Source: a virus. From it: a stretch of 64,000 bases of DNA. A program made the translations under genes and the position numbers. The stretch lies in the IMG/VR virus record IMGVR_UViG_3300045988_141143; one strand, 5' to 3'. Within the stretch, counting starts at the first letter, position 1. Every line of letters starts with the position of its first letter. Under the pieces are notes generated by a model, which saw nothing but the letters and a program-made list of their open reading frames with translations, was not told where the DNA came from and did no database searches. This document shows, piece after piece, positions 6,526 through 42,199 of this stretch.

Positions 6526-9168
6526 TTAGTAATTATTGTTGCTCATTATTCCTACGTCAAGATTACCGAAAGTGGTTTCTGTCTGTATCGAATAGATTCT
6601 TCCATACCCTGCGAGTGTCATGTACTTAGCGCCGAAGGTGGCTATCTGTACATAGAAGGATGGCCTTGTCACGCTCTGCCCCTTCTTGATGGCAGGCACC
6701 AGCTTTGTGTTGTCGTAGGCCGTGGCATCCCCAGTAAGGAACACGCCATCCGCAAGATTTGTCAGCGCACCATTCTTCACCATTGTGCGGCTCGTAAAAG
6801 TCCTTCCGTCGGCTGCACTCGCAAGGTCGTAAGTACCCAATCCGTTTGCCGAGTCGGCTACTATCTTTCCGTTCACTCTTGGCGCTGAGTAACGATACAG
6901 GGTTGTCGTTTTGCCCGTCGCACCCTTAACGAAAAGAATGTAGTTGTTATCCTTCGTTGCCGTGTACCACGACTTGGTGGTATCAACCCACGGTAGGTCT
7001 ACATTCTCTCCGAGCGGAGTCGTCAGTCCTGCGTCCTCTGCTTTGATATATTGCGCAGAAGTTATCTTCGCGTCGGTCTTGCTTAGCGAGGCGATACCAG
7101 CAGGGCCGAGGTCATAGAGAAAGTTTCCGTTGTCGTCGTAGTACGACAGCACGGCCTGTCCCGAACTGTTCAGACCGAAGCGGATGTTTGCAGTTCCTGC
7201 CTTGCCGTAGATATTGATAAGGCCATCGGCTATCCTTACCATCTGTCCGTTGTGTCCTTGGGATGTAAGCATCTGCGCCAGTATCAGAGCCGCATTGATG
7301 GCTCCGTCTTTAAAGAGAGCGGCTGTCGTTGTCTGACCGGTAGAGAGCGTGTTCTCCACCTTGATTTTCTCGCCATACAGAGTTACTCCTCTCGACGTAA
7401 TCTCAAGTCCTGCCGCCTTTGCTGTGGCTCTGTCGATGAGGTCGGTCTTCCGTTCTGTATAATCAGTAAGTTGTGCGCCTTCCTCCAGTTTCGGCTTTGT
7501 CACCCAAGCCTCAGTATCGCCTGGAACACGTATCAGCACCTTGTCTGGGATTACCTCTGCTCCCTCGCCAGTATAGTCCTCTATTCGCCAATGCACCCAG
7601 TACCGCTTATAGGTCGAGGTGAGTGCGAGCTGTGCGTATCCGTCAGCCCAGCCGTCCGTATATTCGTTTCCTTCGCAGGTTTCTGTATATACATTTGCAT
7701 GAACGCTGTCTCCATAGAGAAAGACGTTGATGTTTCCGCTGCCCTTGGCAACGAAGGAGAACACATAGTCCTGATTCTTTACTATTCTCGCCTGCCCAGA
7801 AAGGGTAGCTGTTGTTGGAAATTTATATTGCAAGACTTCTGTGTACTGAGACTCTGCCGAGTTGTTTTTGTTGTACAATATACCGTAGCAGCCTTCGTAT
7901 TTTCCAAACATAATCAGTCCACTGGCAAGCTGGAGATTGCTTTTGTCAGACGATCTGGTCAGTGTCATCGTGTCCTCCATAAGGTTTCCTCCCACATAGT
8001 CGTAGTCCGTTTCCGCAGGAGTCCAGCCTGTGTACTCGCTTCCTTCTTCAAGCATTGGCATACATATCCATCCGTTGCCCGAGGCAGTATAACCAAAGGT
8101 TCCGTCCACGGTTATGCCATTGTAGACAAAGATATTCACCTCGATAAACTCTGCGTTGCTCGTATTGAAGGTGTAGTTCACCTGCCTCCACTGATTCACC
8201 TCGTTCTCCTTTGTCAGCCCGTACATGTTACCCGAGGTGGCAGTAATTCTGTCCCCTCTATCGCCATTCAGCGCAGCCATTTTGAACACCTCCGATATAA
8301 CCTGTAAGTCCTTCGTGTCGCACTTTATCCATGCCGAGAAAGTGTAGTCTGTATTCTTCTTCACAGCGATGCCGTTGACGGCCTGTCCCCAGAAAAGACC
8401 CTTGTACTGAGGCGTTCCGTTACCCGTCACCGAGAAGCGGATGGCATTATGGCCGTTTACGCCCTGTGTTATCGTAGGCTGGAAGATGCCGTTCATATAA
8501 TATATATCACCCTTCCTCGTCAGTGACGTATCTCGCAGTAGGTTATGCCGTCCTTGCTGGCTCTGAGTCACACTGAGAGTAATCTCCTTTGCTGTCTGCT
8601 TGATAGTAGATGTGTAGGCTTTGAGAACGGTAGGATTGCTTCCTTTGAGGTCGTTCTCCAATGCCTTAAATTGCGACTGATACTGCTTTGCCGTAGCCTT
8701 TACACTACCCATATACTTCGACACGTTCACCGAGAATGGAACTTGCGCAAAATAGAGAACACCAGTGTAAACAAATTGTGCGACCGCATAGCCTGATGTT
8801 GCAGAAACCTGTCCTTGATTTACCCCGTCAACAATTACATCGTTCTTTGCAATATTACTGCCTGATACAGATACTTCGATATATCCATCCTTCTGTGTTG
8901 CACTACATTTGCAATTTACACACAAATCATCCCTTGAGTTAATATTGCTGCATTCATTAGAGATATTCAGGTTACCCTTCATTATCTTTACCTTCGCAAC
9001 CTTTGATATGCTAACAGGTACAATTCCACTATCATCTGTGTCAAAAACGAGCGGAGCGTCTTCGACAATAATAGAAACGGCATCCTTGCCAGGCTTGCCT
9101 TGCGGGCCTGGCGCACCATCCTTTATCGCCGCTATCGTTATCTGGCCCCTCGCCAATAATACTGCCAT
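6526..9168 (-). CDS. Tail fibre / receptor-binding protein (880 aa)
   Basis: N-terminus MAVLLARGQITIAAIKDG is shared with the 347-aa neighbour. Collagen-like GAPGPQGKPGKD, then a long beta-rich, Gly/Thr/Asn-rich body. Distal position in the tail block. Confidence 0.65.
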   Translation of the reverse strand: MAVLLARGQITIAAIKDGAPGPQGKPGKDAVSIIVEDAPLVFDTDDSGIVPVSISKVAKVKIMKGNLNISNECSNINSRDDLCVNCKCSATQKDGYIEVSVSGSNIAKNDVIVDGVNQGQVSATSGYAVAQFVYTGVLYFAQVPFSVNVSKYMGSVKATAKQYQSQFKALENDLKGSNPTVLKAYTSTIKQTAKEITLSVTQSQQGRHNLLRDTSLTRKGDIYYMNGIFQPTITQGVNGHNAIRFSVTGNGTPQYKGLFWGQAVNGIAVKKNTDYTFSAWIKCDTKDLQVISEVFKMAALNGDRGDRITATSGNMYGLTKENEVNQWRQVNYTFNTSNAEFIEVNIFVYNGITVDGTFGYTASGNGWICMPMLEEGSEYTGWTPAETDYDYVGGNLMEDTMTLTRSSDKSNLQLASGLIMFGKYEGCYGILYNKNNSAESQYTEVLQYKFPTTATLSGQARIVKNQDYVFSFVAKGSGNINVFLYGDSVHANVYTETCEGNEYTDGWADGYAQLALTSTYKRYWVHWRIEDYTGEGAEVIPDKVLIRVPGDTEAWVTKPKLEEGAQLTDYTERKTDLIDRATAKAAGLEITSRGVTLYGEKIKVENTLSTGQTTTAALFKDGAINAALILAQMLTSQGHNGQMVRIADGLINIYGKAGTANIRFGLNSSGQAVLSYYDDNGNFLYDLGPAGIASLSKTDAKITSAQYIKAEDAGLTTPLGENVDLPWVDTTKSWYTATKDNNYILFVKGATGKTTTLYRYSAPRVNGKIVADSANGLGTYDLASAADGRTFTSRTMVKNGALTNLADGVFLTGDATAYDNTKLVPAIKKGQSVTRPSFYVQIATFGAKYMTLAGYGRIYSIQTETTFGNLDVGIMSNNNY

Positions 9169-9191
9169 ACTCTTTCATTTTTTTTATTAAT

Positions 9192-9216
9192 AAAAAATAA
9201 GGGTGAGGTGCCCTTA
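9192..9216 (-). terminator. Intrinsic terminator-like hairpin overlapping the stop codon of gene 9214..10257
   Basis: Minus strand TAAGGG CACCTCA CCCTTA followed by TTTTTT. Confidence 0.5.
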
Positions 9217-10257
9217 TTTAGACACCTCACAAGTAAACGTGCCTCTCACTGCCACGTCAGCGTTGGACACCGTGACGTAAGGCTTGCTCGAAGCATTCAC
9301 CGCACTTGATGTACCGTTCCAGTTCGTGGCTACACCGCTGGCATTGTACTTCGTCCATTTGTAGATGTAGTTCGAGGCATGGTTGCTGTCTGCCTTCACC
9401 GCTGCACCATCCTCCACTACCTTGCCGTCTTTCCAGAGTCGGGCGTAAAGCTCCGTCGACTGCGAACCGTTCACTATCTTGTCGCCGGTCAGCGAATACA
9501 CCTCCACCACGTACGGGTCGCTCGCATCGAAGAACGTGATGATAGCGCTGGCCGTATCAGCACCGTCCTTCACCGTACAGCGGAAAGTCTGGAAGTTAAG
9601 CACGTCATTGGCGCTCACGTTCAGAGTGCTCACGCCGCCCGAAGTGCTCACGTTGCCCGAAGCCACGGCGTCCCATGTTCCTGCACTGATATTCAGCACC
9701 TCCCAAGTCATTGATGTCATGGTGGTGTCCTGCACGTTGCCACGGAAGAACTTGGCTATAGCACGCAGCTTATTGCTGTTGTTGGTCGAGTCGAACGTGT
9801 TGCCGTCGGGAGTCTCAATCTGCACCGTCTGAAGCGCACCGCCACTCTTAGCCAGCGAAATGGTCTTGTAGCCGATACACGTTGTCGTAGCCTTAGTTTC
9901 GGGGTCAGTATATTTGCACGACCACTCGATGTTCTTCACGCTGCCGTTCTTGTCGATGTTGCTGGCGAGGTTAAGCTGATACGACTTGCCGCTCACAGGA
10001 GTGGCAGCCACACCATCCAACTTCCACGACCATCCCGTACAAGCCGAGGTCGGAGCCTGGTCTGTAGCACTGCCCGTCACATATACACGGGCTGTTATCA
10101 CGTTTGGTTCACTCGACGAGTAGTTCGGAGTGTACACACCCGTGTCGGGGGTGTAAATCTGAGTCTCGCCCTTAGAGCATTGTGTAAAACACTGAACGGC
10201 CTTGCCGTCATTGAGGTCAACGATAGTAATCTGACCATTAGCTAATACTTTTGCCAT
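9214..10257 (-). CDS. Tail fibre protein with Ig-like repeats (347 aa)
   Basis: N-terminus MAKVLANGQITIVDLNDG matches the 880-aa fibre. Ser/Thr/Gly-rich beta-type repeats. Confidence 0.55.
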   Translation of the reverse strand: MAKVLANGQITIVDLNDGKAVQCFTQCSKGETQIYTPDTGVYTPNYSSSEPNVITARVYVTGSATDQAPTSACTGWSWKLDGVAATPVSGKSYQLNLASNIDKNGSVKNIEWSCKYTDPETKATTTCIGYKTISLAKSGGALQTVQIETPDGNTFDSTNNSNKLRAIAKFFRGNVQDTTMTSMTWEVLNISAGTWDAVASGNVSTSGGVSTLNVSANDVLNFQTFRCTVKDGADTASAIITFFDASDPYVVEVYSLTGDKIVNGSQSTELYARLWKDGKVVEDGAAVKADSNHASNYIYKWTKYNASGVATNWNGTSSAVNASSKPYVTVSNADVAVRGTFTCEVSK

Positions 10258-10281
10258 AATCGTTTGTTTGTTTTAATATTA

Positions 10282-12597
10282 TTATATGTTACTATTAATA
10301 GTCTTTGTATCTGATACGCACACACTACATCCGAATTGTGCCTGTCTGTCTACGTCGTCACGTGTTATAAGACAGTTCCGGCCAATCCCCTCATGCAGCT
10401 TATTCCATACAGCATCATCTTCGGCATCAGCCGATTGTCGCCACCACGACCATGAGCTGTTGCCCACGGTGTCGCTTATGTCCTCGCCATTGCGTAGCAG
10501 CGTTGCCTTCAGCGTCATTTCGCCCGAACCGTTAATCATCACCGTGCCCGTATCGCTCGTTATCATTATCTGATAAGCCACGCCGTCCTCGCCCTTGTCT
10601 CCCTTCTCGCCTTTGCTTCCAGATAGAACTTTTTTCCATTGTGTCGAGCCGTCAGAAGGCTCACCTGTTACGTCCTCCTCTGAATTGGCAACACACACCC
10701 AAACGGCATTATTGTGATTTACTTGGTCGTTCTTATGATAGGTATTTCCTTCTACCCAGTCACCTCTATAATTGATGATATTAATAGTACTGCCGTCATC
10801 CGAAATCAATTCAAAGTGTGAGGAATTGATTTTCGTTCCACCCTTCGGTGAAGTCTCGAATACCGACAGAGATACTTCTTTGTTCTCGCCATTTACGCTT
10901 TTTGTGATAGTATGCTTGTACTCAGAGATATTAGCATAGCAAGCGATACGAGGAGCATAGTCGCCAGTTGTCTCAAGGATAATCACGTTCTGCCTGTCCG
11001 TCTTGTCGTACTCAAGATTGCCATTACGATGTCTGTTGCCGTCCAGCACGATTGTGTCGCCCTCAGCAGGGTCTCCCTTTATCTCAACAGGCGCATTCTT
11101 CTCTGTATATCCGTCTAAGCCTTCGGAATGCTTGCCAACGACAATCCAAGCAAACGCCTGACCATCGTACAATTCCACCTGTTCTTCTCTCGTCTGCTCC
11201 TTACCAGCTTCGTCAAGATAAGTCTCCGTTTTAGTGCCGTATATCTTCTCATTTTGCGTAGATACGCCACCATCAGGAATAGTACGCCAGTAACTCTTAT
11301 TACTTGTATCACTATATGCTCCACCAGCCACAATCTCGCCAATAGTCTGACAGCGCACTTGGTCGCCCTCCTGCCAGTAGTTCATCGTGGCAGTAGTTCC
11401 GTTGTCAGCTAAGAGATAGCATTTCCAGCCAGCGCATTCTGCATCATCCGCAGTTGTTTCTACCCAAGATATAACACCGTCAGCAGATACCGATTCCTTG
11501 ACAGGCACAACTTTGATAAGCTTGCTACCAGCTCCAGATAAATAGATGTTGCCTCCCGAATAAGACAGCTTGCGTACATCTAATTCGTGGAATATCGCCT
11601 TGCCCCAGATGGTGAGGTTCGTAACGAAGGCGTGATATTTTCCGTTATCCTTCTTAACAGCGAAACCCTGCTCTGCTTCGTTGTCGTAGTCGATGGACTG
11701 TAACGACTCAAAGATGGCACGTCCTGCCTCGTCTATCAACGCTCCTCCCTTACCAAAGTAAGCACCTCTGTTCAGCTTTACTAAAGCCTCGCTCACCAGT
11801 CCTTTGATAAAGGTAATCATGCCGTTTACCGTGTCATCATTCTCTTTGGATAAGAAATGGCGTACACCAAACTGCCCAAGGAACTCAGGAGTAACCACTT
11901 TGTTGGCTGACGTATCATCGGTGTTTTCTGTCGCTACGCCAACGATTTTATGTCCATTCAAGAAAAGGGTGGCGATAGTGGCTGTCGCTGCCTTGAGCGT
12001 AGTAAATGCTGCCACAGAGATGGTCTTCAGGAACTTGATGGTGTCGTGTACTGACTCATATCTCCACCACTGACCCTCGCCGCCGGAAGCTATCGCTTCG
12101 TCGGTGGCAAGAGAACCGTATTCCACAGTGAGAGTCCACTCACGATACTTTTCTATGATGTCCTGATCGTTCTCATCCTTACCTACATTTTTGGTCAGGA
12201 CCTCAGAGATTTCTCCTTGCAGATACACATAGTAATAGTCCTCGTTGCCCACCTGCTTGTCCGGAGATGCAATAGACTTACCGTAGATGTCAATGCGCTC
12301 GCTGGGGAATACCACCATTGCCGTACCGTTGACGCCATTGCTGACGCGCGGAATGGCTACGTAAACATACTTAGCCTTTGCATCAGGAAAGAGAGAGGGA
12401 TAAGCCACTAACGGCCAACGCTGATAGTTGTGCCCGGCATCGTAGCCCAGACCCTCAATGTCCTGCATATAGCATAGAATAGAAGCACCACTCGCCACGC
12501 TACACTGGATGTAGTTAGGCTCACCCATTGCGTTGAGTTGGATATAGAGCGCACTGCTCGAAATCCAATAATTCGTAATTTTGACTTCTGTTACCAT
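10282..12597 (-). CDS. Tail fibre / baseplate-distal protein (771 aa) with a carbohydrate-binding-like motif
   Basis: YRGDWVEGNTYHKNDQVNHNNAVWVCV resembles CBM5/12 chitin-binding-type aromatic motifs. Collagen-like GSKGEKGDKGEDG near the C-terminus. Confidence 0.55.
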   Translation of the reverse strand: MVTEVKITNYWISSSALYIQLNAMGEPNYIQCSVASGASILCYMQDIEGLGYDAGHNYQRWPLVAYPSLFPDAKAKYVYVAIPRVSNGVNGTAMVVFPSERIDIYGKSIASPDKQVGNEDYYYVYLQGEISEVLTKNVGKDENDQDIIEKYREWTLTVEYGSLATDEAIASGGEGQWWRYESVHDTIKFLKTISVAAFTTLKAATATIATLFLNGHKIVGVATENTDDTSANKVVTPEFLGQFGVRHFLSKENDDTVNGMITFIKGLVSEALVKLNRGAYFGKGGALIDEAGRAIFESLQSIDYDNEAEQGFAVKKDNGKYHAFVTNLTIWGKAIFHELDVRKLSYSGGNIYLSGAGSKLIKVVPVKESVSADGVISWVETTADDAECAGWKCYLLADNGTTATMNYWQEGDQVRCQTIGEIVAGGAYSDTSNKSYWRTIPDGGVSTQNEKIYGTKTETYLDEAGKEQTREEQVELYDGQAFAWIVVGKHSEGLDGYTEKNAPVEIKGDPAEGDTIVLDGNRHRNGNLEYDKTDRQNVIILETTGDYAPRIACYANISEYKHTITKSVNGENKEVSLSVFETSPKGGTKINSSHFELISDDGSTINIINYRGDWVEGNTYHKNDQVNHNNAVWVCVANSEEDVTGEPSDGSTQWKKVLSGSKGEKGDKGEDGVAYQIMITSDTGTVMINGSGEMTLKATLLRNGEDISDTVGNSSWSWWRQSADAEDDAVWNKLHEGIGRNCLITRDDVDRQAQFGCSVCVSDTKTINSNI

Positions 12598-12629: not shown

Positions 12630-12637
12630 CAAAGTTA
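12630..12637 (-). promoter_or_regulatory. Candidate -7 promoter box TAACTTTG upstream of the 771-aa fibre gene
   Basis: TAnnTTTG match on the minus strand about 33 nt upstream of the ATG at 12597. Confidence 0.45.
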
Positions 12638-12693: not shown

Positions 12694-12732
12694 CAAAAAA
12701 ACGAAGGACACAGCCCTAAAGCCGATGTCCTT
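12694..12732 (-). terminator. Rho-independent terminator after gene 12764..13816
   Basis: Minus strand AAGGACA-N15-TGTCCTT followed by CG and TTTTTTT. Confidence 0.6.
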
Positions 12733-12763: not shown

Positions 12764-13816
12764 TCAGAGTAGAAGTGAACCATTAATATCGATCACTACT
12801 TTAAACGACAAAGCATACATATTGGTGTTAGTGTCATCCTGGATAGTGGTCTCGTCTTCCAAAGTGATGGTGCATGGAATCCAAATGCCGTGCGATAGAA
12901 TCCATGCGTGTTCGCTCATGGCAAACTCGTGCAGATACCAGTCGAGCCAATTCTCGTCGAGTGGGTCAGTAGTGAGATTCCAAGTTTCTTGATCATTCTG
13001 TTTCTTGACCGACGCACGAGAGAAGGAGTTGAACGTCTCCTGCTTTGCCACAATATACGATTCTGTTGTAAGCGCCATCTTACGGCTGTTGGCTTTCGGC
13101 AGACTGACACTCTCAAGTACACCAAACAGATTGATGAAGCGTATGGTGTAACGGTTGCTCGCCTCTGTAGCAGGAAGCGCATAGAGTTGGTGAGTACCGA
13201 TGGTCTGTAGTCCTTCCTGCGTAATCTCCTTAGAGACAGACGTGGGAGGAACCAGGGTCGGACTGTTACTGAGCAGTTGTTCTGTCTCGTATGATGGAGT
13301 ATAAATAAAGGTGTCACCCACAACGACGGGTTGCGGCAATGTGTTCGGCTTTCGGGTAAACGAAACGACTCCCTTGCTGAGTCCAGACAGAAGGCGCACC
13401 ATATCAGAGAAAGCACCCGCTATGCTGCGAAGGTTCGTATTGCCGGTTTCGTCGGGGTTTTGAGGATAAAACACCTCGCCTACATTGGTATGTATCTCAC
13501 CATTGCTATCCATATATTCATCGTAGGCATGGACGTACCAGCTCACGAAAGGATAGGTTGTCGGCTCGGGAGTATATTCGTAGGAGTCGAGTGCCGCACG
13601 GAGAGCTGACGATACATCAAGCGATACATCAGTGCCCTCTTTGGTGACAGGCTCATTGAGTTGTATGACATCATAGCTGCCGTCATTGTCGAACATGACC
13701 TCTACGACGACACGATGAAAAGAAGGTGTATTATCTGGAACTGACGGCGAGATGGTAAAAGTAACCGGGTTGCCAGCAAGGATTGAACCAGATGTAAGTA
13801 AAATATTCTTTGCCAT
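12764..13816 (-). CDS. Hypothetical tail/baseplate protein (350 aa)
   Basis: Long ORF with an ATG start in the tail block. No motif recognised. Confidence 0.45.
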   Translation of the reverse strand: MAKNILLTSGSILAGNPVTFTISPSVPDNTPSFHRVVVEVMFDNDGSYDVIQLNEPVTKEGTDVSLDVSSALRAALDSYEYTPEPTTYPFVSWYVHAYDEYMDSNGEIHTNVGEVFYPQNPDETGNTNLRSIAGAFSDMVRLLSGLSKGVVSFTRKPNTLPQPVVVGDTFIYTPSYETEQLLSNSPTLVPPTSVSKEITQEGLQTIGTHQLYALPATEASNRYTIRFINLFGVLESVSLPKANSRKMALTTESYIVAKQETFNSFSRASVKKQNDQETWNLTTDPLDENWLDWYLHEFAMSEHAWILSHGIWIPCTITLEDETTIQDDTNTNMYALSFKVVIDINGSLLL

Positions 13817-13879: not shown

Positions 13880-14128
13880 CTAAGACATTTTCTTCTCTAC
13901 GATAGCTGTCACATCAGACACAAGCTGTAAGTCTTTTGCCTCTTCTGGCGAAATCTTGATATGGAACATGGTTTCGGTCTGAAGAACGAGGTCGAGAAAG
14001 TCAATAGACTCAAGAGCAAGATCATCACGCAGGTTAGCGCTGTCGGTCACTTCTGCTGTCGATGCCCAAGGTGTGCGCAGGCCTTCAACGATATTGAACA
14101 CCCGCTGACGTATATCTTCTTTGTTCAT
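13880..14128 (-). CDS. Acyl carrier protein-like (81 aa)
   Basis: Helix-II motif DDLALESIDFLDLVLQTE, with Ser at the canonical phosphopantetheine position of D-S-L/I-D. Size and acidic character are typical. Its ATG overlaps the KS stop (ATGA). Confidence 0.7.
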   Translation of the reverse strand: MNKEDIRQRVFNIVEGLRTPWASTAEVTDSANLRDDLALESIDFLDLVLQTETMFHIKISPEEAKDLQLVSDVTAIVEKKMS

Positions 14129-15339
14129 GATGGTTGATATTTAGAGATGATGAATGATGAGTTGGTGCCTCCGAAGCCAAAGGCATTGCAGAGGATATGG
14201 TGTGCTGAGTACTCGCGTGACTGCATGACGAGATTGAGTTTGGGAAAAGCATTCTCGGCTGTGGTAGCCGCACCGAAGACAGTGTCTGTGTTGAGCATCA
14301 TGGATGCTTGAACGGCCTGCGATACACCAGCCATCCAGCACTCGTGCCCCGTCATGCCCTTGGTGGCTACGATATAAGGGCTCTCGGGGAATACCTTTCC
14401 GATGGCTTCTGCCTCTGCAGCATCGCCCAGCTCTGTACCTGTGGCATGGGCAAGGAGTACATCTATCATTCCTGCATCGAGTCCTGCCGATTCTATGGCC
14501 TTAATCATTGCCACTTCTTCCTGATAAGCATCCGGGGTACAGATGTTGGTGCCGTTGGTGGAGAAGCCGCAGCCGGAAAGTTCTGCCACGGGCGAGACTT
14601 CATAATCCTCGAAACGCAAGCTGTCGGAAGGCTCAAGAATGACACAGGCTGCACCACCCGAAGGAGCAAGACCATTGCGGCCTTTGCCGAAGGGCTGCAC
14701 CTTGTCGGGCGAGAAAACGCCCATGGCATCAAACGACAGCATGGAGAAGGGACCTGTCTCCTGTGCGCCAACGACAATCACCATGTCGGTTTGGCGCGTA
14801 TCAAGAAGCATCTTGGCAAGACCGATGGCATGACCTCCTCCGGCACAAGCCCCGCTGACGGTAAGCGAAAGTCCTTTCAGTCCGTAGATAGAGGCGAGAC
14901 TCATGCTGACGGTGGAATTGAGTGTACGGAACACTGCGCCTGCCCCTAAACGTCGGGTGTCGCGCTGTGTAATGGCAGTTGTCATTGCCTGATAGTTGTC
15001 TCCAGCCGTAGTGTCGTTGCTGACGATGACCGATACATTGTGAGACTGCAAGAACTCGGGAAGAATATTGGCTTCCATCAGAGCCTCGTTGACGGCAGAT
15101 AAGGAATATAGGGTCGGTTCGGAAAGACATTGCCGTTGAGCCCTGGTGAGTTCGGATAGCTTCCAAGGGTTCGGGTCATTTATCTTTCCGCACAGGTCGG
15201 ACTGATAACCTTTCTCGCTACGTGCGGGGTCGTGGTGAAGACCGCACTCTCCATACGCCAGCTTCTGTGCGACGGAAAAGGTATCGTTGCCAAGACAGGA
15301 AACGATACCTGTGCCTGTGATTAATATTTTTCTATCCAT
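14125..15339 (-). CDS. Beta-ketoacyl-ACP synthase, KAS I/II (FabF/FabB) family
   Basis: Active-site Cys in TVSGACAGGGHAIG. His in LLAHATGTELGD. Second His in TKGMTGHECWMAG. C-terminal NAFGFGGTNSSFII. Confidence 0.85.
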   Translation of the reverse strand: MDRKILITGTGIVSCLGNDTFSVAQKLAYGECGLHHDPARSEKGYQSDLCGKINDPNPWKLSELTRAQRQCLSEPTLYSLSAVNEALMEANILPEFLQSHNVSVIVSNDTTAGDNYQAMTTAITQRDTRRLGAGAVFRTLNSTVSMSLASIYGLKGLSLTVSGACAGGGHAIGLAKMLLDTRQTDMVIVVGAQETGPFSMLSFDAMGVFSPDKVQPFGKGRNGLAPSGGAACVILEPSDSLRFEDYEVSPVAELSGCGFSTNGTNICTPDAYQEEVAMIKAIESAGLDAGMIDVLLAHATGTELGDAAEAEAIGKVFPESPYIVATKGMTGHECWMAGVSQAVQASMMLNTDTVFGAATTAENAFPKLNLVMQSREYSAHHILCNAFGFGGTNSSFIISKYQPS

Positions 15340-15368: not shown

Positions 15369-18182
15369 TTACAAAGCATAGACGGTCAGTTCCACCTCTC
15401 CAATGCCTTCCTTAGCCGTGATAGTTGTATTCACCTTGTCGATAAGACATTTCACACCTCCGATGTTCCACCACGTCTTCCAATGGTTAGGTATGTCGGC
15501 TATCTGTGCGACAGAAGCCGAACAGCGGATGATGTACTTCTTGCGGTTAAGCAGAAAATAGGCGTAGGGCAAAATGAAGGTATCAAAAAGACCGCGTGAG
15601 CGTATCTTGGTTATCACGTTGCCTTTGGCATCCACCTCGTCGGGGTCGCAGAGAGAAACATCCTTGTATTCCGGCTTACTGAGCCATGACGGCTCTTTGA
15701 AAGCGCGTATCTTGAGCGAGAAGCGTTCACCTTTGCCTCTGCCTTCCTGCACACCATTGTAGTCGAATACATTGCCCATCATGTCAAGAGAGTCGCAAGC
15801 AAGAGCATACTCGCCTGCTGCCGTGCGCCACTTGGAAGTACCGAAGTGGTCATAGTTATAGTCATAGGGCTCTGTGGTTGCATTCGTACCGCCGCCTCGC
15901 ATCATGGCCAAGGCAAATCCCCATCGTGAATCGTCTTGAAGAGGCGAGTTGCCGTCTTCGGTGTTTGACGGGTCGTAACTCTCGACGAGTTTCAATGACT
16001 GCTGCATATAGAAGTCGCAGAAAGGCGAGGAGATGGTCTGGTTGATGATTTGCTCGACAAACTCATGTTCCATTTCCTCGTCGACATAGGCGCAGAGGAT
16101 GGGCTGTCCTTCCTTGATAACGACACCATAGGTTGTTGTCTTTGAATCATCATAGTACTTTGCCGTATGAGAGCCGTAAGCAGCCTCTATCTCCTTGAAA
16201 TAGTTGACATCGTTGAACGGCACGGGAGTGAAGTCGATGGTGATGTCGTGGATGAAGTCTTCATTCTCCTCGCTGCAATCACCATACTCCACACCCTTGT
16301 ACTGGCCTACCTCGAAAAGTACAGGTTTGAGGTCGGCTGTAGTAGTGGCGTCGCCATTCACCTTCACGCGATAGGCATTGCCCGTCTTGCGGTCGATGTA
16401 GCATCTTTTATCTCCAGAACTTAAATTATGAAAGAAGTCAACGTAATCTCGATCGTAAACCGTTTCGTTGTCTCCACTTCCCGGTTCGGGATAGTCGATA
16501 TAGTCGTAATCGGTGGCATAGCCCATATTTTTATTCTTGCGGCTGTCCTTGACGTTCTGCTGCTGATCCTTGGCATCGCTCTCTTCGGAGTATCGCATAC
16601 GTACACCCGTTATCTTCTCGCTGACGGGAATGATAGAATGAATGTCTGCGCGGAACGTGCGTGCTGGCTGTCCACTCTCGCGAAGCACGTCACGGATGAG
16701 GTAGGCCGTGACTTTCTTTTGCTCATAGTCGTAGGAGAACTTGATGCCGAAGGCGCTTTCCAAGGATGAGATAATCGTGCTGACACTCTCATCGGGGAAG
16801 TTGTCGCTGTTGGCCACCATATAGAGCACGTTGGCCTGCACGTTGAACTTAGAGATTTGCGCCTCGATGCTGATACCAGTCACCTTGCCGCCCTCTTTTG
16901 TCGTCTCTCCCACCTGTATGTGTTCGGAAGTCCCTTCGTTAGTGGTGAGGGTGAGCTCGTTGACCGTCTTGTCCTCTGCCTTTACGATGTTGATTTTTCC
17001 ACCACAACCGCGCGACTCCAACCAGGAGTTGATATGATCTTGCTTCTTGAAATATCCTTCCTTAATCTCGCCTTCCTTCTTTTTCTTGGCGATGACTTCG
17101 GGGTCGTCCTTCTTGTAGTATGTTCCGTGATGTGGATGCTCTTTGGTATCGTAGGCGCAAACGGTGGTGAAGAAACAGAGGTGCTTCATATCCTCTATCT
17201 GCATCAGTGCCGACTTGTCGAAGGTGACACCCAAGTGAGCAAACAGGCAGTCGAGAAAATAGAGTACATAGAAACAAATGCCCGACTGCGGACGGCGTGC
17301 GTCCAACACCCAATAGGGATAAAGATCTTCGTTAGTCCACTTGCAATCCTTTGTGCTGATAATGTCGCTCGATGTGGTGCCATCGTCTGCCAGTCCGTGG
17401 TGCTTGTAGCAGATACGGGCATTGCAATAGGCTGCGGGACGGCCTGCGCCATCAGTCTCGCCATAGGCTGCCGATGTGTTGATATAGTCGCCATTCTTGG
17501 CGATGGCGGGCTCGTTGACTGAATTTCCGTTGGGGTAGGATCGTGACGACTTTCTCTTGGCATCGGCCTTCATGTGTAAAGGATAAAGGATATTGGTGGT
17601 GTACTCCTGGCACGATGCAGGATAGGAGAAGCCAAGAGCCTGCGGTTCGAGCACTTTACTTACACTTACGTGCTCAGCATGAATGGTTCGGGTGACAGTC
17701 TCGTCATCCTTATGCTTTCCTCCCTCCACAAATACACTGACATTTACAACAGGGTCGCTCTCGATGTCTACCATTACATTGCCTATCTTCTCGCCGATGA
17801 TCAGTTCATCCTTGATGGGGATGTCACGACAGTTGAGCGATCCGATGAGGTCGCTGAAACTCTGTCTGCCTGCATTAATACTCATAGAGAGCGAGTCTTT
17901 TATCTCTTCAGCATCCTGCATGACGAGCGTACCGTTGCGGAAGGGCAGTCCGTCGGCATGAATGCGCGTAGGCAAATGCTCCATGTTGACAGCACGAAAC
18001 GATGCCCGCACGTCATCGATGTTCTTTACCAGCCATCGGTTGCCGTCGAGCGGAATGGAAAACGGATAGGCGAACATCTCGTTATCATTGAACACAGGGT
18101 TTTGGTCCTCTATGTCGATAGAGAAATCATCGGGCAGCGACACAGGGCGGTCGTTGATAAGTATGGTGAGATGTGAGTTCAT
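15369..18182 (-). CDS. Large baseplate/tail structural protein (937 aa)
   Basis: Largest non-tape-measure protein in the tail block. ATGA overlap with the upstream ORF at 18179-18182. No motif recognised. Confidence 0.45.
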   Translation of the reverse strand: MNSHLTILINDRPVSLPDDFSIDIEDQNPVFNDNEMFAYPFSIPLDGNRWLVKNIDDVRASFRAVNMEHLPTRIHADGLPFRNGTLVMQDAEEIKDSLSMSINAGRQSFSDLIGSLNCRDIPIKDELIIGEKIGNVMVDIESDPVVNVSVFVEGGKHKDDETVTRTIHAEHVSVSKVLEPQALGFSYPASCQEYTTNILYPLHMKADAKRKSSRSYPNGNSVNEPAIAKNGDYINTSAAYGETDGAGRPAAYCNARICYKHHGLADDGTTSSDIISTKDCKWTNEDLYPYWVLDARRPQSGICFYVLYFLDCLFAHLGVTFDKSALMQIEDMKHLCFFTTVCAYDTKEHPHHGTYYKKDDPEVIAKKKKEGEIKEGYFKKQDHINSWLESRGCGGKINIVKAEDKTVNELTLTTNEGTSEHIQVGETTKEGGKVTGISIEAQISKFNVQANVLYMVANSDNFPDESVSTIISSLESAFGIKFSYDYEQKKVTAYLIRDVLRESGQPARTFRADIHSIIPVSEKITGVRMRYSEESDAKDQQQNVKDSRKNKNMGYATDYDYIDYPEPGSGDNETVYDRDYVDFFHNLSSGDKRCYIDRKTGNAYRVKVNGDATTTADLKPVLFEVGQYKGVEYGDCSEENEDFIHDITIDFTPVPFNDVNYFKEIEAAYGSHTAKYYDDSKTTTYGVVIKEGQPILCAYVDEEMEHEFVEQIINQTISSPFCDFYMQQSLKLVESYDPSNTEDGNSPLQDDSRWGFALAMMRGGGTNATTEPYDYNYDHFGTSKWRTAAGEYALACDSLDMMGNVFDYNGVQEGRGKGERFSLKIRAFKEPSWLSKPEYKDVSLCDPDEVDAKGNVITKIRSRGLFDTFILPYAYFLLNRKKYIIRCSASVAQIADIPNHWKTWWNIGGVKCLIDKVNTTITAKEGIGEVELTVYAL

Positions 18183-23023: not shown

Positions 23024-23031
23024 CAAATGTA
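23024..23031 (-). promoter_or_regulatory. Candidate -7 promoter box TACATTTG upstream of the portal candidate
   Basis: TAnnTTTG match. It lies in a 23-nt block identical to the one upstream of the HU-like gene. Confidence 0.5.
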
Positions 23032-23326: not shown

Positions 23327-24145
23327 TTATCGTTTGATATTCCACATGTGCTCTGCCGGACCAACGAGCACGTCGATGTTTGCGCCCTGCTTCAGGGCCA
23401 CCGTCTCCACCCATTTAAGTTGAATAAACTGCTGTGGGTTAAGATTCATCTCGTTCATATACGCCTTGTCTGCCACAGCCTTTTGGCGTTCAGCCTTCTC
23501 GCGTGCCAACTGCACCTCATATTCACGTTCCTGCGTCTGCTTGGCCTGTACCATCTTTGCCGTGCGGTTCATTTCGGCAAGCTGTTCCTTGTTTGGGGTT
23601 GCCTTGCCGATGATAACGTCCTTGATGATGACGGGCATCGGCTTGTGCTTTGAGAGGGCAGCCACGTAATCCTGCATCTGCTTCAGAATCTTCTTGTCGA
23701 TGGTGCTCAATACCTGTCGGTTAGACATCAAATCGAATGGACTGTACTGCGAGATATGGTCTCTGATAAGATTGCAGAAATAGTTGTAGAGGTTGGTGTC
23801 AAACCAGTCGCGTCCATAGTTCTGCAACAGTATGGGAGACTTGCCTTGCTCCACCTGAGTGACTATGACAGAATGGAAGTCGAGTGGCGTGTTATCGTCG
23901 GAGAAGATGTCGTCAAGAACAACCTCGTGGCGTACAGGCACAATCTTGAATGTTTCAGAATGAGTACTCAGGGCACACCATGTCAAGCCACTCTGAACTG
24001 GGTCGTTGTCAACACCTCCGTGTCCGAAGAACCATGGTTTCTTTACCAACACGGTTTCCTCGTCAGCATCGGGCGACACAAAACAGCACGAGGATAACAT
24101 CACTACTGCGATAAGCGCAAAAAGAATTGAAAATAATTTTTTCAT
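23327..24145 (-). CDS. SPFH/band-7-like lipoprotein
   Basis: ORF track 23327..24391; the ATG at 24145 gives MKKLFSILFALIAVVMLSSC (signal peptide plus lipobox). The core resembles the SPFH fold, followed by a coiled coil (QTQEREYEVQLAREKAERQKAVADKA). Confidence 0.5.
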   Translation of the reverse strand: MKKLFSILFALIAVVMLSSCCFVSPDADEETVLVKKPWFFGHGGVDNDPVQSGLTWCALSTHSETFKIVPVRHEVVLDDIFSDDNTPLDFHSVIVTQVEQGKSPILLQNYGRDWFDTNLYNYFCNLIRDHISQYSPFDLMSNRQVLSTIDKKILKQMQDYVAALSKHKPMPVIIKDVIIGKATPNKEQLAEMNRTAKMVQAKQTQEREYEVQLAREKAERQKAVADKAYMNEMNLNPQQFIQLKWVETVALKQGANIDVLVGPAEHMWNIKR

Positions 24146-24287
24146 AATTGTTTTTTGTTTATATTGATTCATTAAAATCCTTATATATGACAATCGTACA
24201 TTGTCAATAGAGTGTCTGTAGGTATTCCAGTTCTTTCCAATTCTTTCAAAACTGGAAAGAACGGGAATGGCTATACACCCGCTGCCT

Positions 24288-24839
24288 TTACGACTCAATC
24301 TCGGGAGGGTTGCCACCAGGTTTCTGCTCGCCGCCTCCAGTGGTGCCGGAATCGCCCGTGCCGGGAGTTGCTGGAGCATCCGTTGCAGCATCGCCCACTC
24401 GCTTGAACGAGCCGTGCTGTGCGAAGGCGGCGGTGAACTTCTTGGAGAAGTCGATGGCTACGCCTGCGGTGAGGTCCTTTGTGGTGAGGTCGGCGGCGGT
24501 AATCTCTCGGTTCACGTCAACGTCCTCGCCTGCTGCCTTACGTGCTTCGAGCTTCGCCTTGAGCTGGCTCTGAGTGAGCGAACCGCTGACGGTAGGACGT
24601 ACCGTCATGCCCTCGGCAGACACCTGTACCTTGGTGCCCAGTGCCAACAGAAGCGGCAGCTTTTTCTCCAACTGCGTCATCACGGCCATTACGTCCGCTG
24701 CGCCTACTGTAGAGTCCTGCGCCATGTAGTCGCAAAATTCAGGGAATGACATCTGCTGCAAGTCAACGATCTGTGCGCTTGCAACCTTTTCTTTCGTGAA
24801 ATTATTCACACGAACTGCAATTCTTGTTTTGATTGCCAT
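24288..24839 (-). CDS. HU-like (HU_HIG-type) DNA-binding protein with glycine-rich tail
   Basis: N-terminal region typical of Bacteroidota HU-family proteins (AADVMAVMTQLEKKLPLLLALGTKVQV). C-terminal GGGEQKPGGNPPEIES. Confidence 0.55.
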   Translation of the reverse strand: MAIKTRIAVRVNNFTKEKVASAQIVDLQQMSFPEFCDYMAQDSTVGAADVMAVMTQLEKKLPLLLALGTKVQVSAEGMTVRPTVSGSLTQSQLKAKLEARKAAGEDVDVNREITAADLTTKDLTAGVAIDFSKKFTAAFAQHGSFKRVGDAATDAPATPGTGDSGTTGGGEQKPGGNPPEIES

Positions 24840-41280: not shown

Positions 41281-41457
41281 ATCTTAGTTATTATACTTAA
41301 TACTTTCACTGCAAAATTAAGAAATAAAACCTAAATAACAAAATATCTGGGGTATTTTCTTGTGTATTTAAGATATATTAAAAGAAATTTAATCGAAATA
41401 TCCCAGTTGTTTCACGTAATGATAGGTATTTTTGAGTGATGAGAAGGAGCATAAAAT

Positions 41458-42150: not shown

Positions 42151-42199
42151 CAGAAAATACTAACTAATAAATAAGATAAAGAAAATAAAATTCGTAAAC

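What the first reader, a model, noticed from the sequence alone, without database searches (positions are those of the whole stretch)
13880..15339. Complete condensing enzyme plus acyl carrier protein, translationally coupled, embedded in the tail/baseplate operon
The 404-aa ORF has every KAS I/II hallmark: Cys in TVSGACAGGGHAIG, His in LAHATGTELGD, His in TKGMTGHECWMAG, and NAFGFGGTNSS. The Cys-His-His triad marks it as a decarboxylating elongating ketosynthase rather than a KAS III. The second-His loop (GHECWMAG) deviates from the usual GHxLGAAG. The 81-aa ORF carries the ACP helix-II motif DDLALESIDFLDLV with the Ser for phosphopantetheine attachment. The ketosynthase stop and the ACP start overlap (ATGA at 14125-14128). 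The pair lies on the same strand, 29 nt after a 937-aa baseplate-like gene and 63 nt before the 350-aa protein and tail-fibre genes. No promoter box or terminator was noticed around it, so it should be expressed late with the virion genes. No acyltransferase, reductase, dehydratase, thioesterase or phosphopantetheinyl transferase is present in the window, so it would rely on host FabD and AcpS. Possible roles are acyl or polyketide-like modification of a virion or receptor-binding component, remodelling of host envelope lipids at assembly or lysis, or diversion of the host FAS. A KS-ACP pair inside a tail module is not a standard phage feature as far as I know.
Basis: partly seen in the sequence, partly recalled or inferred. 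Interest (0 to 1): 0.78.

Follow-up and report, generated by a model that had tools for sequence, protein, structure and literature searches.

The report
Phage-borne ketosynthase and carrier protein cassette
A widespread family of ~100 kb gut phages, probably infecting Prevotella, carries an intact chain-extending enzyme and its carrier protein that were captured from a bacterial pigment (flexirubin/aryl-polyene) pathway, so the phage probably taps host lipid machinery to make a special acyl chain whose product and target are unknown.

Summary
A 404-aa KAS I/II-type ketosynthase (14125-15339, minus) and an 82-aa acyl carrier protein (13880-14128, minus) overlap by ATGA. Cys165, His298, Lys327 and His332 of the ketosynthase (KS) and Ser41 of the carrier protein (ACP) are invariant in 58-59 phage copies. 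dN/dS is 0.12 and 0.18.

The interpretation needs three corrections.
- The KS is not FabF/FabB-like housekeeping. Its odd GHECWMAG loop is the signature of a Bacteroidota KS family (38-42% identical). That family sits in TAL-KR-KS-ACP-LpxL-type acyltransferase clusters of the flexirubin/aryl-polyene type II PKS kind, where KS-ACP adjacency already exists.
- The pair is a movable accessory cassette, not part of the tail. It lies between the 937-aa and 350-aa genes in all 60 clade-A contigs. It follows the tape-measure gene (order ACP-KS) in a sister clade. It is absent from 20 related contigs where the 937-aa and 350-aa genes abut.
- The 937-aa "baseplate-like" label could not be verified.

Phage KSs are monophyletic (95/100), which points to one old capture. 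No PPTase, acyltransferase, ketoreductase, dehydratase or thioesterase was found in the whole ~100 kb genome, so the pair depends on the host. The most likely mechanism is a NodE/NodF-style tap of host type II FAS/PKS, expressed late. The product is unknown.

The parts
14125..15339 (-). Ketosynthase, 404 aa. KAS I/II-type (thiolase fold) with Cys165-His298-His332, Lys327 and GFGG loop Phe387/Phe389. Member of the 'HECWM' KS family of Bacteroidota flexirubin/aryl-polyene clusters.
   Evidence: Searches give identity. Searches show the catalytic residues invariant in 58 sequences and dN/dS 0.12. Searches give family and origin.
13880..14128 (-). Acyl carrier protein, 82 aa. Helix-II motif LALESIDFLDL with Ser41 as the predicted 4'-phosphopantetheine site.
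   Evidence: Searches give identity. One search shows Ser41, Glu40, Asp43, Leu45 and Asp46 invariant in 59 sequences. One search gives dN/dS 0.18. One search shows the phage ACP profile scoring flexirubin-cluster ACPs at 31-52 bits against 26 bits for E. coli AcpP.
14125..14128 (-). ATGA overlap of the KS stop codon and the ACP start codon (translational coupling).
   Evidence: The same -4 overlap occurs in the closest relatives and a few others. Elsewhere the spacer is 2-83 nt, and once 363 nt.
15369..18182 (-). 937-aa conserved phage protein of unknown fold. It forms the upstream border of the cassette insertion site.
   Evidence: It has no family, PDB or model assignment. Homologues at 41-52% identity directly abut the 350-aa homologue in contigs that lack the cassette.
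12764..13816 (-). 350-aa conserved phage protein, beta-rich. It forms the downstream border of the insertion site.
23024..23031 (-). TACATTTG, a Bacteroidota -7-type box upstream of the 597-aa gene. It is the candidate start of the transcription unit that contains the cassette.
   Evidence: On the minus strand there is no other TAnnTTTG between 23024 and 12637. This is a consensus match only.
12705..12717 (-). Weak terminator-like hairpin followed by a T-run after the 350-aa gene. A -7 box at 12630-12637 follows it, ahead of the 771-aa tail-fibre gene.
   Evidence: Consensus matches only.
6526..12597 (-). Tail-fibre or tail genes downstream: 771 aa at 10282-12597, 347 aa at 9214-10257, and 880 aa with a CBM-like stretch at 6526-9168.
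   Evidence: One search gives phrog_17422/2929/35697 for the 771-aa protein and phrog_3267 (2.2e-59) for the 347-aa protein. One search gives a weak CBM_4_9 hit.

Best explanation
Shown:
- This is an accessory two-gene cassette made of a homodimer-type elongating ketosynthase and its own acyl carrier protein.
- An ancestor of a family of ~100 kb tailed phages of gut and rumen Bacteroidales captured it once.
- The hosts are probably Prevotella/Segatella.
- The source was the Bacteroidota KS family found in flexirubin/aryl-polyene type II PKS clusters, at the position of FlxC and its neighbouring ACP.
- In the window's clade it was inserted between two conserved late genes (937 aa and 350 aa).
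- It has no promoter motif of its own.
- It has stayed catalytically intact under strong purifying selection.

Inferred mechanism:
- Host AcpS converts the phage ACP to its holo form, and host FabD loads it with malonate.
- The phage KS takes an acyl primer from the host pool (acyl-ACP or acyl-CoA, possibly an aryl or enoyl starter) and condenses it with malonyl-ACP.
- Host ketoreductase and dehydratase process the chain. Depending on whether enoyl reductase acts, the product is a fatty or a polyenoyl chain.
- The net effect is that carbon is diverted onto a phage-specific carrier late in infection. This is how NodE/NodF tap housekeeping FAS to make a special polyunsaturated acyl chain.

Where the acyl-ACP ends up is unknown. 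It could be the outer-membrane lipid or pigment pool, a phage protein, or a diffusible product.

The confidence of 0.5 applies to the whole statement. The 'shown' part alone I would put at about 0.85, and the inferred mechanism at about 0.4.
For: Identity and integrity. The triad, Lys and gating Phe of the KS and Ser41 of the ACP are invariant, with dN/dS 0.12 and 0.18.

Family and origin:
- The motif TGHECWM[AS]G found more than 120 GTDB loci, almost all Bacteroidota.
- Their KSs are 38-42% identical to the phage KS (260-310 bits). FabB in the PDB scores 169 bits.
- Among 17 such loci, 13 carry an aromatic amino-acid lyase, 16 an SDR ketoreductase, 15 a PP-binding ACP and 15 an LpxL-type acyltransferase. 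O-methyltransferase, 4HBT thioesterase and halogenase genes also occur.
- This matches the flxA (TAL), FlxB (reductase), FlxC (KS) layout of the Chitinophaga flexirubin cluster (PMC3992019).
- KS-ACP adjacency already exists there.
- The phage ACP profile prefers those ACPs.

Phylogeny: phage clades A and B are monophyletic in 95/100 NJ bootstraps. The HECWM family separates from FabB/FabF in 91/100.

Cassette behaviour:
- 60 of 60 clade-A contigs carry it between the 937-aa and 350-aa genes.
- 20 of 20 clade-C contigs, and L402, L404 and L405, have those genes 25-50 nt apart without it. None of these appears in the uncapped IMG/VR scan for this exact motif.
- Clade B places ACP-KS after the tape-measure homologue.

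Host dependence: no other FAS/PKS or PPTase Pfam family is present in the whole genome. Aryl-polyene clusters likewise borrow FAS FabD (PMC12624758).

Late co-transcription: no TAnnTTTG box occurs on the coding strand between 23024 and 12637. None occurs in the gaps around the pair in 19 relatives.

Precedent for a KS+ACP pair tapping FAS: NodF (PMC9542644). NodE as the partner KS comes from my own knowledge.

A human-gut Prevotella genome with an aryl-polyene cluster is reported in PMC8863827.
Against: - No product, primer or acceptor is known.
- No acyltransferase or thioesterase that could unload the ACP was found in the phage.
- The biochemical role of FlxC-type KSs themselves is only postulated (PMC3992019).
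- The host assignment rests on the names of binned MAG proteins.
- Late expression is inferred from the absence of consensus motifs, not measured.
- The tree is neighbour-joining on 393 columns.
- Phage-specific substitutions next to the catalytic Cys (CAGGGHA against CASGSHS) and after the second His (AGVSQ against AGASE) may mean a substrate different from that of the cellular relatives.
- Clade C does without the cassette, so its benefit is conditional.
Confidence: 0.5

Rival explanations
1. The pair plugs into, or competes with, the host's own flexirubin/aryl-polyene-like pathway. It replaces or outcompetes the host FlxC-type KS and ACP. Synthesis of the outer-membrane polyene lipid is then boosted, altered or blocked in the infected cell, for example for oxidative-stress protection until lysis or to change the cell surface. 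This is a special case of the main explanation with a defined partner pathway.
For: The ancestry lies in exactly that KS-ACP pair. Family-specific active-site residues are retained: NDS, F-R-[ST]-L-N-S, RxGLxPS, HATxT and HECWM. The clusters occur in Prevotella and Prevotellaceae genomes (L061, L111), and in a human-gut Prevotella assembly (PMC8863827). The phage also carries a LysR regulator whose best solved relatives include OxyR.
Against: It is not shown that the hosts of this phage clade carry such a cluster. The phage KSs are only about 40% identical to the cellular ones and differ beside the catalytic Cys. There are no expression or metabolite data.
Confidence: 0.2
2. One reading: the acyl chain made on the phage ACP is attached to a virion or receptor-binding component, or the proteins are themselves virion-associated. 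On this view the pair sits among tail genes for that reason.
For: In three different genome arrangements the pair follows a tail gene on the same strand: the 937-aa gene, the tape-measure gene or a tail fibre gene. It lacks its own promoter motif. In 30 or so clade-A genomes the ACP stop lies 1-2 nt from the 350-aa start.
Against: The position is not conserved relative to any one structural gene. Clade C has the same 937-aa and 350-aa genes without the cassette. No acyltransferase was found in the genome. The 350-aa model shows no enzyme fold.
Confidence: 0.15
3. Generic auxiliary metabolic gene: the pair simply supplements host fatty-acid elongation as a FabB/FabF substitute, sustaining membrane lipid supply during infection.
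For: The best solved relatives are FabB enzymes. The best NCBIfam rows are FabB and FabF. All residues needed for elongation are present.
Against: Scores are far below the equivalog cut-offs: 191 against 630, and 180 against 494. The KS belongs to a PKS-cluster family, not to housekeeping KSs. A private ACP is unnecessary for boosting FAS. The pair appears to be transcribed with late genes. No PHROG family matches the KS in reference phages.
Confidence: 0.1
4. Host shut-off or decoy: the ACP and KS sequester or consume malonyl-ACP, FabD or AcpS (KSs can decarboxylate malonyl-ACP). Host lipid synthesis collapses late in infection, which aids lysis.
For: There is no unloading enzyme in the phage. 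The context is late.
Against: The acyl-binding and gating residues are strictly conserved as well as the decarboxylation residues. The ACP shows purifying selection over its whole length. Nothing specifically indicates inhibition.
Confidence: 0.07
5. Recent passenger, host contamination or assembly chimera.
For: None was found. GC of the KS (0.53-0.56) is slightly above that of its neighbours (0.46-0.51) but within the window's range.
Against: Identical synteny occurs in 57-60 independent contigs from many samples, at 58-98% identity. The exact protein occurs on 7 contigs. The nearest cellular relatives are only 38-42% identical.
Confidence: 0.01

Closest known systems
FlxC-position ketosynthase plus neighbouring ACP of Bacteroidota flexirubin / aryl-polyene-type type II PKS clusters (Chitinophaga pinensis flx cluster, PMC3992019)
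   Same: They share the signature loop TGHECWM[AS]G and other family-specific active-site residues. These are the best cellular matches, at 38-42% identity and 260-310 bits. The KS is directly followed by an ACP. The family groups together in the tree (91/100). Such clusters rely on housekeeping FabD in the related aryl-polyene systems (PMC12624758).
   Different: The phage keeps only the KS and ACP. It has no TAL, ketoreductase, dehydratase, thioesterase, LpxL-type acyltransferase, second KS/CLF or export genes. The phage KSs form their own clade outside the cellular one (95/100). They carry CAGGGHA and AGVSQ where the cellular enzymes have CASGSHS and AGASE. The genes sit in a phage late operon.
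NodE (KS) / NodF (ACP) of rhizobia
   Same: It is a minimal KS plus dedicated ACP pair that lacks its own transacylase, reductase and dehydratase. It uses housekeeping FAS enzymes to build a special polyunsaturated acyl chain for a dedicated acceptor (NodF: PMC9542644; NodE: own knowledge). This is the best functional analogy.
   Different: No specific sequence relationship was tested or seen. NodFE has a known acceptor and acyltransferase (NodA, Nod factor), and the phage has none. NodFE is bacterial and symbiosis-regulated.
FabB (KAS I), e.g. Vibrio cholerae 4XOX and E. coli FabB
   Same: FabB enzymes are the closest solved structures by sequence (1.3e-48, about 30% identity, full length). 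They share the Cys-His-His triad, Lys, HxTxT and GFGG loop.
   Different: The score falls far below the FabB equivalog cut-off, 191 against 630 bits. The residues after the second His (ECWM against SLGA), around FabB 105-107 (NDS/T against SGG) and at 229-232 (LAPS against FVIA) differ. It is not a housekeeping gene.
Proteobacterial aryl-polyene ketosynthases ApeR (homodimer) and ApeO-ApeC, with ACPs ApeE/ApeF
   Same: Both are type II, highly reducing PKS systems that make an outer-membrane polyene lipid. Both have a homodimeric KS option and dedicated small ACPs, and both borrow FabD (PMC12624758).
   Different: PDB chains labelled only 'Ketosynthase' or 'Beta-ketoacyl synthase' (6kxd, 6qsp) score 80-84 bits, below FabB. 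I believe these are APE KSs, from memory. The phage KS is therefore not a close sequence relative of them.
Phage-encoded acyl carrier proteins and other auxiliary metabolic genes / morons (phrog_5934)
   Same: The ACP matches phrog_5934, 'acyl carrier protein', in the category 'moron, auxiliary metabolic gene and host takeover', at 5.5e-8. The cassette shows presence/absence and positional variation typical of accessory genes.
   Different: No PHROG family matches the KS. INPHARED holds no relative of the flanking genes, and only distant KS hits (28% identity or less) apart from one bacterial-looking fragment. The cassette has no promoter or terminator of its own, unlike classical morons.

Membership tests
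KAS I/II-type condensing enzymes (Pfam ketoacyl-synt N + C) | Both thiolase-fold half-domains present over the full length | tested here: met
   PF00109 at 7.7e-26 (residues 3-238) and PF02801 at 5.8e-20 (residues 252-354). Full-length alignment to FabB.
KAS I/II-type condensing enzymes | Cys-His-His catalytic triad, active-site Lys and GFGG gating loop | tested here: met
   C165, H298, H332, K327 and F387/F389 align with FabB C163, H298, H333, K328 and F390/F392. All are invariant in 58 phage sequences.
FabB (KAS I) equivalog, NCBIfam NF005935 | Score at or above the curated cut-off (630 bits) | tested here: not met
   191.2 bits.
FabF (KAS II) equivalog, TIGR03150 | Score at or above the curated cut-off (493.75 bits) | tested here: not met
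   180.2 bits. E. coli FabF lies outside the HECWM family in the tree.
'HECWM' ketosynthases of Bacteroidota flexirubin/aryl-polyene clusters (FlxC position) | Signature loop TGHECWM[AS]G after the second catalytic His, plus NDS, RxGLxPS and HATxT | tested here: met
   The loop is invariant in 58 phage KSs. It is shared with the cellular family and differs from FabB/FabF.
'HECWM' ketosynthases of Bacteroidota flexirubin/aryl-polyene clusters | Groups with the family to the exclusion of FabB/FabF in a phylogeny | tested here: met
   91/100 NJ bootstraps for the family. The phage KSs form a separate monophyletic branch (95/100) beside, not inside, the cellular FlxC-like clade (100/100).
'HECWM' ketosynthases of Bacteroidota flexirubin/aryl-polyene clusters | Encoded in a cluster with TAL, ketoreductase, ACP, LpxL-type acyltransferase and further KSs | tested here: not met
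   Only the ACP neighbour is retained. No other cluster gene is present anywhere in the ~100 kb genome.
'HECWM' ketosynthases of Bacteroidota flexirubin/aryl-polyene clusters | Extends an aryl-polyenoyl chain | not testable with these tools
   This needs biochemistry. Even for FlxC the role is only postulated (PMC3992019).
Type II acyl carrier protein | PP-binding fold with a conserved Ser at the start of helix II (DSL-type motif) | tested here: met
   PF00550 at 22.8 bits against a 20.8 cut-off. The E-S-I-D motif has Ser41 invariant in 59 sequences. Solved ACPs match at up to 7e-9.
Type II acyl carrier protein (NCBIfam ACP models) | Score at or above the curated cut-off | tested here: not met
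   The best score is 48.1 bits against a cut-off of 66 (NF002150). This is a divergent ACP.
Type II acyl carrier protein | Is 4'-phosphopantetheinylated and carries acyl or malonyl groups | not testable with these tools
   No PPTase is encoded in the phage. Host AcpS is assumed.
NodE/NodF-type minimal KS+ACP pair (functional class) | KS and dedicated ACP encoded together without transacylase, reductase or dehydratase, so dependent on housekeeping FAS | tested here: met
   Gene content of the window and of the whole related genome.
NodE/NodF-type minimal KS+ACP pair (functional class) | Dedicated acyltransferase and acceptor for the product | tested here: not met
   No acyltransferase family was detected in the phage. 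A host enzyme cannot be excluded.
Phage accessory cassette (moron / auxiliary metabolic gene) | Presence/absence and positional variation among related phages with otherwise conserved neighbours | tested here: met
   Three insertion sites are seen. There are 20 clade-C contigs and 3 further contigs with an empty 937/350 junction. None of these appears in the uncapped IMG/VR scan for the exact motif.
Phage accessory cassette (classical moron) | Own promoter and terminator | tested here: not met
   No TAnnTTTG box occurs in the flanking gaps in the window or in 19 relatives. Only weak terminator-like hairpins are present.

The most novel reading that the evidence does not exclude
A virus encodes a working fragment of a polyketide-type lipid pathway. 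With it, the phage makes a polyenoyl or unusual acyl chain on its own carrier late in infection. The chain is then attached to the infected cell's outer membrane or to a virion or ejection protein such as the tail tip, tape measure or fibres. This would change adsorption, superinfection exclusion, membrane penetration or oxidative-stress survival. It would be the first phage-directed PKS-type lipidation, and it would occur in one of the common phage lineages of the human gut.
Probability: 0.2. Interest if true: 0.85.

Novelty: new variant of a known kind. Interest (0 to 1): 0.62.

Why it matters
Ketosynthases and carrier proteins are textbook enzymes. A minimal, catalytically intact KS+ACP pair of polyketide (flexirubin/aryl-polyene) ancestry, fixed for a long time in an abundant lineage of ~100 kb gut phages and apparently expressed with late genes, is different. 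It is not described in the literature I could search, and the KS matches no PHROG family.

If the pair is active, phages can redirect host type II FAS/PKS flux with only two genes. That would add a lipid or pigment dimension to phage-host interplay in Prevotella-rich microbiomes.

It also offers a natural experiment. Clade A carries the cassette. Clade C has the same neighbouring genes without it. Clade B carries it elsewhere. Comparing them can show what the cassette buys.

It would also give a handle on the still uncharacterised FlxC-type ketosynthases.

Tried and rejected
- **AlphaFold2 of the 937-aa protein.** The result was pLDDT 29 and unusable, because the allowed alignment was too shallow.
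- **Profile searches of the PDB.** Alignments of the 350-aa, 937-aa (clade A only, then clades A+B+C) and 597-aa proteins gave nothing significant.
- **PADLOC.** The KS, the ACP and six neighbours gave no meaningful hit.
- **INPHARED.** Megablast of 7 kb and tblastn of the 937-aa protein gave no match. tblastn of the KS found mostly records at 28% identity or less that look like host DNA or unverified contigs.
- **MT837464.1.** This best 'phage' hit (40% identity) turned out to be a NusG-like + SDR + KS + OMP fragment. It clusters with a Prevotella cluster KS, so it was rejected as phage evidence.
- **Remnants of ACP-KS at the tape-measure/primase junction.** This is where clade B carries the pair. 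None was found, and no Rfam family reached its threshold.
- **Own promoter for the pair.** None was found. Sigma-70-type hits occurred only modestly above the shuffle expectation (21 found against 12.6 ± 3.4), and that promoter type is not the one expected for Bacteroidota.
- **Literature.** Searches for phage KS/ACP, Prevotella phage KS and phage PKS found nothing relevant.
- **Rejected ideas.** A crAss-like podovirus was rejected because the 1983-aa gene is a tape-measure protein, so the phage is long-tailed. A recent host passenger was rejected.
Full report
**1. Observation**

The KS runs 14125..15339 on the minus strand (404 aa). The ACP runs 13880..14128 on the minus strand and is 82 aa rather than 81.

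Read on the minus strand, the sequence shows the ATGA overlap of the KS stop and the ACP start. It also shows a 29-nt gap after the 937-aa gene and a 63-nt gap before the 350-aa gene.

Pfam finds both ketoacyl-synthase half-domains (7.7e-26 and 5.8e-20). It finds a PP-binding domain just above its cut-off. The closest solved proteins are FabB enzymes for the KS (1.3e-48, full length) and ordinary ACPs for the small protein.

Cys165 matches FabB C163, His298 matches H298, Lys327 matches K328 and His332 matches H333. Phe387 and Phe389 are the two Phe residues of the GFGG loop.

**2. It is a conserved phage feature, not a passenger**

A search of IMG/VR with the KS returned 59 loci, mostly on contigs of about 100 kb, with KS identity of 58-98%. 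In 57 of them the gene order is the same: 597 aa, 369 aa, 358 aa, 222 aa, 937 aa, KS, ACP, 350 aa, then the 771-aa tail-fibre-like gene. The four central genes are separated by -4 to about 120 nt.

Across 58 KS and 59 ACP sequences, several residues are invariant:
- the catalytic Cys, both His, the Lys and both Phe of the KS;
- the whole GHECWMAG loop;
- Ser41 of the ACP.

Pairwise dN/dS (Nei-Gojobori, pairs with dS 0.1-1.5) has a median of 0.12 for the KS and 0.18 for the ACP. The protein database holds thousands of relatives. The best 120 are all from this clade, and two carry source names pointing to Prevotella or Candidatus Segatella bins and to 'Bacteriophage sp.'.

The window itself equals positions 38464-102463 (reversed) of a 102,463-bp ENA metagenome scaffold. 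The 1983-aa gene at 42200-48151 has a tape-measure domain, so this is a long-tailed phage. No related phage is in INPHARED.

**3. What kind of ketosynthase it is**

NCBIfam ranks FabB (191 bits) and FabF (180 bits) first. Both are far below their cut-offs of 630 and 494 bits.

A search of 1.84 billion representatives showed a set of stand-alone KSs at 36-45% identity that score much higher, 210-286 bits. Nearly all of them carry the same unusual loop after the second His, TGHECWM[AS]G.

Almost all were Bacteroidota: Flavobacterium, Chryseobacterium, Chitinophagaceae, Dyadobacter, Bacteroidales, and also Prevotella and Prevotellaceae. These KSs are 38-42% identical to the phage enzyme at 260-310 bits, and many have an ACP gene directly downstream.

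Their neighbourhoods are strikingly uniform. Among 17 loci:
- 13 have an aromatic amino-acid ammonia-lyase;
- 16 have an SDR ketoreductase;
- 15 have a PP-binding ACP;
- 15 have an LpxL-type (lipid A biosynthesis) acyltransferase;
- O-methyltransferase, 4HBT thioesterase, flavin halogenase and further KS genes also occur.

This is the layout of the flexirubin cluster of Chitinophaga pinensis. There, flxA is a tyrosine ammonia-lyase, FlxB a reductase and FlxC a ketosynthase (PMC3992019). So the 'deviant' loop is a family signature.

The family-specific residues around the active site are shared by the phage enzymes and differ from FabB/FabF. They are N-D-[ST] at FabB 105-107, F-R-[ST]-L-N-S, R-x-G-L-x-P-S, H-A-T-x-T and H-E-C-W-M. 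The phage enzymes differ from the cellular ones mainly beside the catalytic Cys (CAGGGHA against CASGSHS) and after the loop (AGVSQ against AGASE).

A profile of the phage ACPs scores the cluster ACPs at 31-52 bits and E. coli AcpP at 26 bits. That fits joint capture of the pair. No Bacteroidota AcpP was available as a control.

**4. Phylogeny**

I built a neighbour-joining tree (Kimura distances, 393 columns, 57 sequences). The window's clade (A) and a second phage clade (B) form one group in 95 of 100 bootstraps. The cellular FlxC-position KSs form one group in 100 of 100. The whole HECWM family separates from E. coli FabB and FabF and from the second KSs of the same clusters in 91 of 100.

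The simplest reading is one old capture from this PKS family, followed by divergence within phages.

**5. The pair is a movable cassette**

Clade B consists of other contigs of about 100 kb. There the order is ACP then KS, overlapping. The pair follows directly after the homologue of the tape-measure gene and lies upstream of the homologue of the primase-like gene. In two further contigs (L181, L373) it lies about 4 kb beyond a tail-fibre-like gene.

The structural genes themselves (222, 937, 597, 350, 369 and 771 aa) are present in clade B, but away from the pair.

Searching IMG/VR with a profile of the 350-aa protein gave 80 loci:
- 60 loci (350-aa identity 51-98%) have KS-ACP between the 937-aa and 350-aa genes.
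- 20 loci (350-aa identity 45-55%, 937-aa identity 42-52%, contigs of 14-100 kb, most 70-100 kb) have the two genes 25-50 nt apart with nothing between.

Three more distant contigs show the same empty junction.

It returned 76 contigs, and none of those 23 contigs is among them. So phages with the same neighbouring genes exist without any KS carrying this exact motif. The cassette is accessory, not a part of the tail machine.

The window's own tape-measure/primase junction holds no remnant of the pair.

**6. Expression context**

The Bacteroidota -7 box TAnnTTTG is absent from the coding strand between 23024-23031 and 12630-12637. The first site lies just upstream of the 597-aa gene. The second lies in the gap before the 771-aa gene.

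A weak terminator-like hairpin with a T-run sits at 12717-12705, after the 350-aa gene. A weak one also sits at the end of the 937-aa gene, and a strong one follows the 347-aa gene.

None of 19 representative relatives has a -7 box in the gaps around the KS and ACP.

The pair is therefore most likely transcribed in one unit running from the 597-aa gene to the 350-aa gene. In clade B it is most likely transcribed at the end of the tape-measure unit. These are consensus matches only, and timing was not measured.

**7. What else the phage brings**

No PPTase, malonyl transacylase, ketoreductase, dehydratase, enoyl reductase, thioesterase or acyltransferase family was found in the window. This rests and on the precomputed annotations.

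None was found in the remaining ~38 kb either, as read from a 97%-identical genome.

The pair must therefore use host AcpS and FabD, and host reductive enzymes if the chain is processed. Proteobacterial aryl-polyene clusters also lack FabD and borrow it from FAS (PMC12624758).

**8. Mechanism (inference)**

A KAS I/II-type enzyme cannot start from nothing. It takes an acyl group onto its Cys and condenses it with malonyl-ACP. With a private ACP, the net effect is to move a chain from the host pool onto a phage-specific carrier and extend it.

This is the logic of NodE/NodF, where a KS and a dedicated ACP exploit housekeeping FAS to make a special polyunsaturated chain. NodF is covered by PMC9542644. 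NodE as the partner KS is from my own knowledge.

Given the ancestry, the chain may be enoyl, polyenoyl or aryl-primed. The host's own flexirubin/aryl-polyene-type enzymes may be the partners. Such a cluster is reported in a human-gut Prevotella assembly (PMC8863827). It is also present in Prevotella and Prevotellaceae genomes in my scan.

The destination of the chain is unknown. The rivals are listed separately in this report: virion lipidation, a bulk FAS boost, or depletion of malonyl-ACP. None has positive evidence.

**9. Limits**

- The neighbours could not be assigned. The AF2 model of the 350-aa protein is poor (pLDDT 61), with generic beta-sandwich matches only.
- The model of the 937-aa protein failed (pLDDT 29). 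PDB profile searches found nothing.
- 'Tail/baseplate operon' thus rests on the downstream tail-fibre and tail PHROG hits and on synteny.
- Host identity rests on bin names.
- The tree is distance-based.
- The motif scan would miss KSs with a variant loop.

**10. Verdict**

It is a polyketide-family KS-ACP pair, fixed in an abundant gut phage clade.

It is a new variant of known kinds: a phage auxiliary gene cassette and a minimal KS+ACP pair. Its product is unknown.

Noticed in passing
window 41281-42199: This is a 920-nt AT-rich non-coding gap between the tape-measure gene and the primase-like gene. All five copies of GGTCKCATTT in the 64-kb window lie here (41459-42028), and 0 of 100 shuffles reach five. 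The only full Bacteroidota -33/-7 promoter match in this part of the window (41312-41342, minus strand) is also here, out of four in the whole window. It looks like an iteron-type origin or regulatory region. In sister clade B this same junction carries ACP-KS.
   Followed up: partly
window 30531-31439 (minus): The phage encodes a full-length LysR-type transcription regulator (HTH_1 + LysR_substrate). Its best solved relatives are NtcB and OxyR. A small-molecule- or redox-sensing regulator is unusual in a phage, and a link to the KS-ACP product is conceivable.
   Followed up: partly
L299, L266, L344 (IMGVR_UViG_3300045988_151591, 97%-identical relative): The part of the genome outside the window encodes a ParA-like ATPase, an NAD-dependent DNA ligase, a beta sliding clamp and an exonuclease. 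No integrase was detected. Plasmid-like carriage is possible.
   Followed up: no
L247 10-11.4 kb (IMGVR_UViG_3300045988_148428, 160.9 kb): A third, unrelated large viral contig carries a KS (377 aa, 33% identical) directly followed by an 82-aa ACP. They sit among DNA-metabolism-like genes. In the tree the KS groups with representative P0359, which has a GHECWAAG loop.
   Followed up: partly
L001 (GenBank MT837464.1, 'UNVERIFIED: Bacteriophage sp.'): This best 'phage' database hit to the KS (40%) encodes a NusG-like protein, an SDR reductase, a FlxC-type KS and an outer-membrane beta-barrel protein. Its KS clusters with that of a Prevotella genome. It looks like bacterial DNA filed as phage.
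   Followed up: partly
L039 11210-11572: In one clade-A relative the KS-ACP spacer has grown to 363 nt. It is filled with tandem direct repeats and several copies of a GC-rich palindrome (CGGCGGATTTGAAATCCGCCG-like). This suggests a small repeat element inserted between the two genes.
   Followed up: no
window 23327-24391, 36-41 kb and 51-63 kb: Other accessory genes are present: an SPFH/Band_7 protein (phrog_200), ThyX, guanylate kinase, MazG, PAPS reductase, a GH108 endolysin with a PG-binding domain, YopX proteins, and at least two DNA methylases (C5 and N6/N4).
   Followed up: no
L293 (Logan ERR12814188 contig, relative of the window start): A contig shares the window's 135-aa protein exactly but differs otherwise. 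It carries a weak reverse-transcriptase (RVT_1) hit next to the end of a 1970-aa protein, and a HicA toxin gene. A diversity-generating retroelement is possible in a mosaic relative.
   Followed up: no
L345, L351 against L469, L472 (IMGVR 3300045988_129266 and _131698): Two clade-C contigs lack the KS-ACP cassette yet share the window's 135-aa protein at 96-98% identity. Cassette-bearing and cassette-free phages therefore exchange genes and probably share hosts.
   Followed up: no
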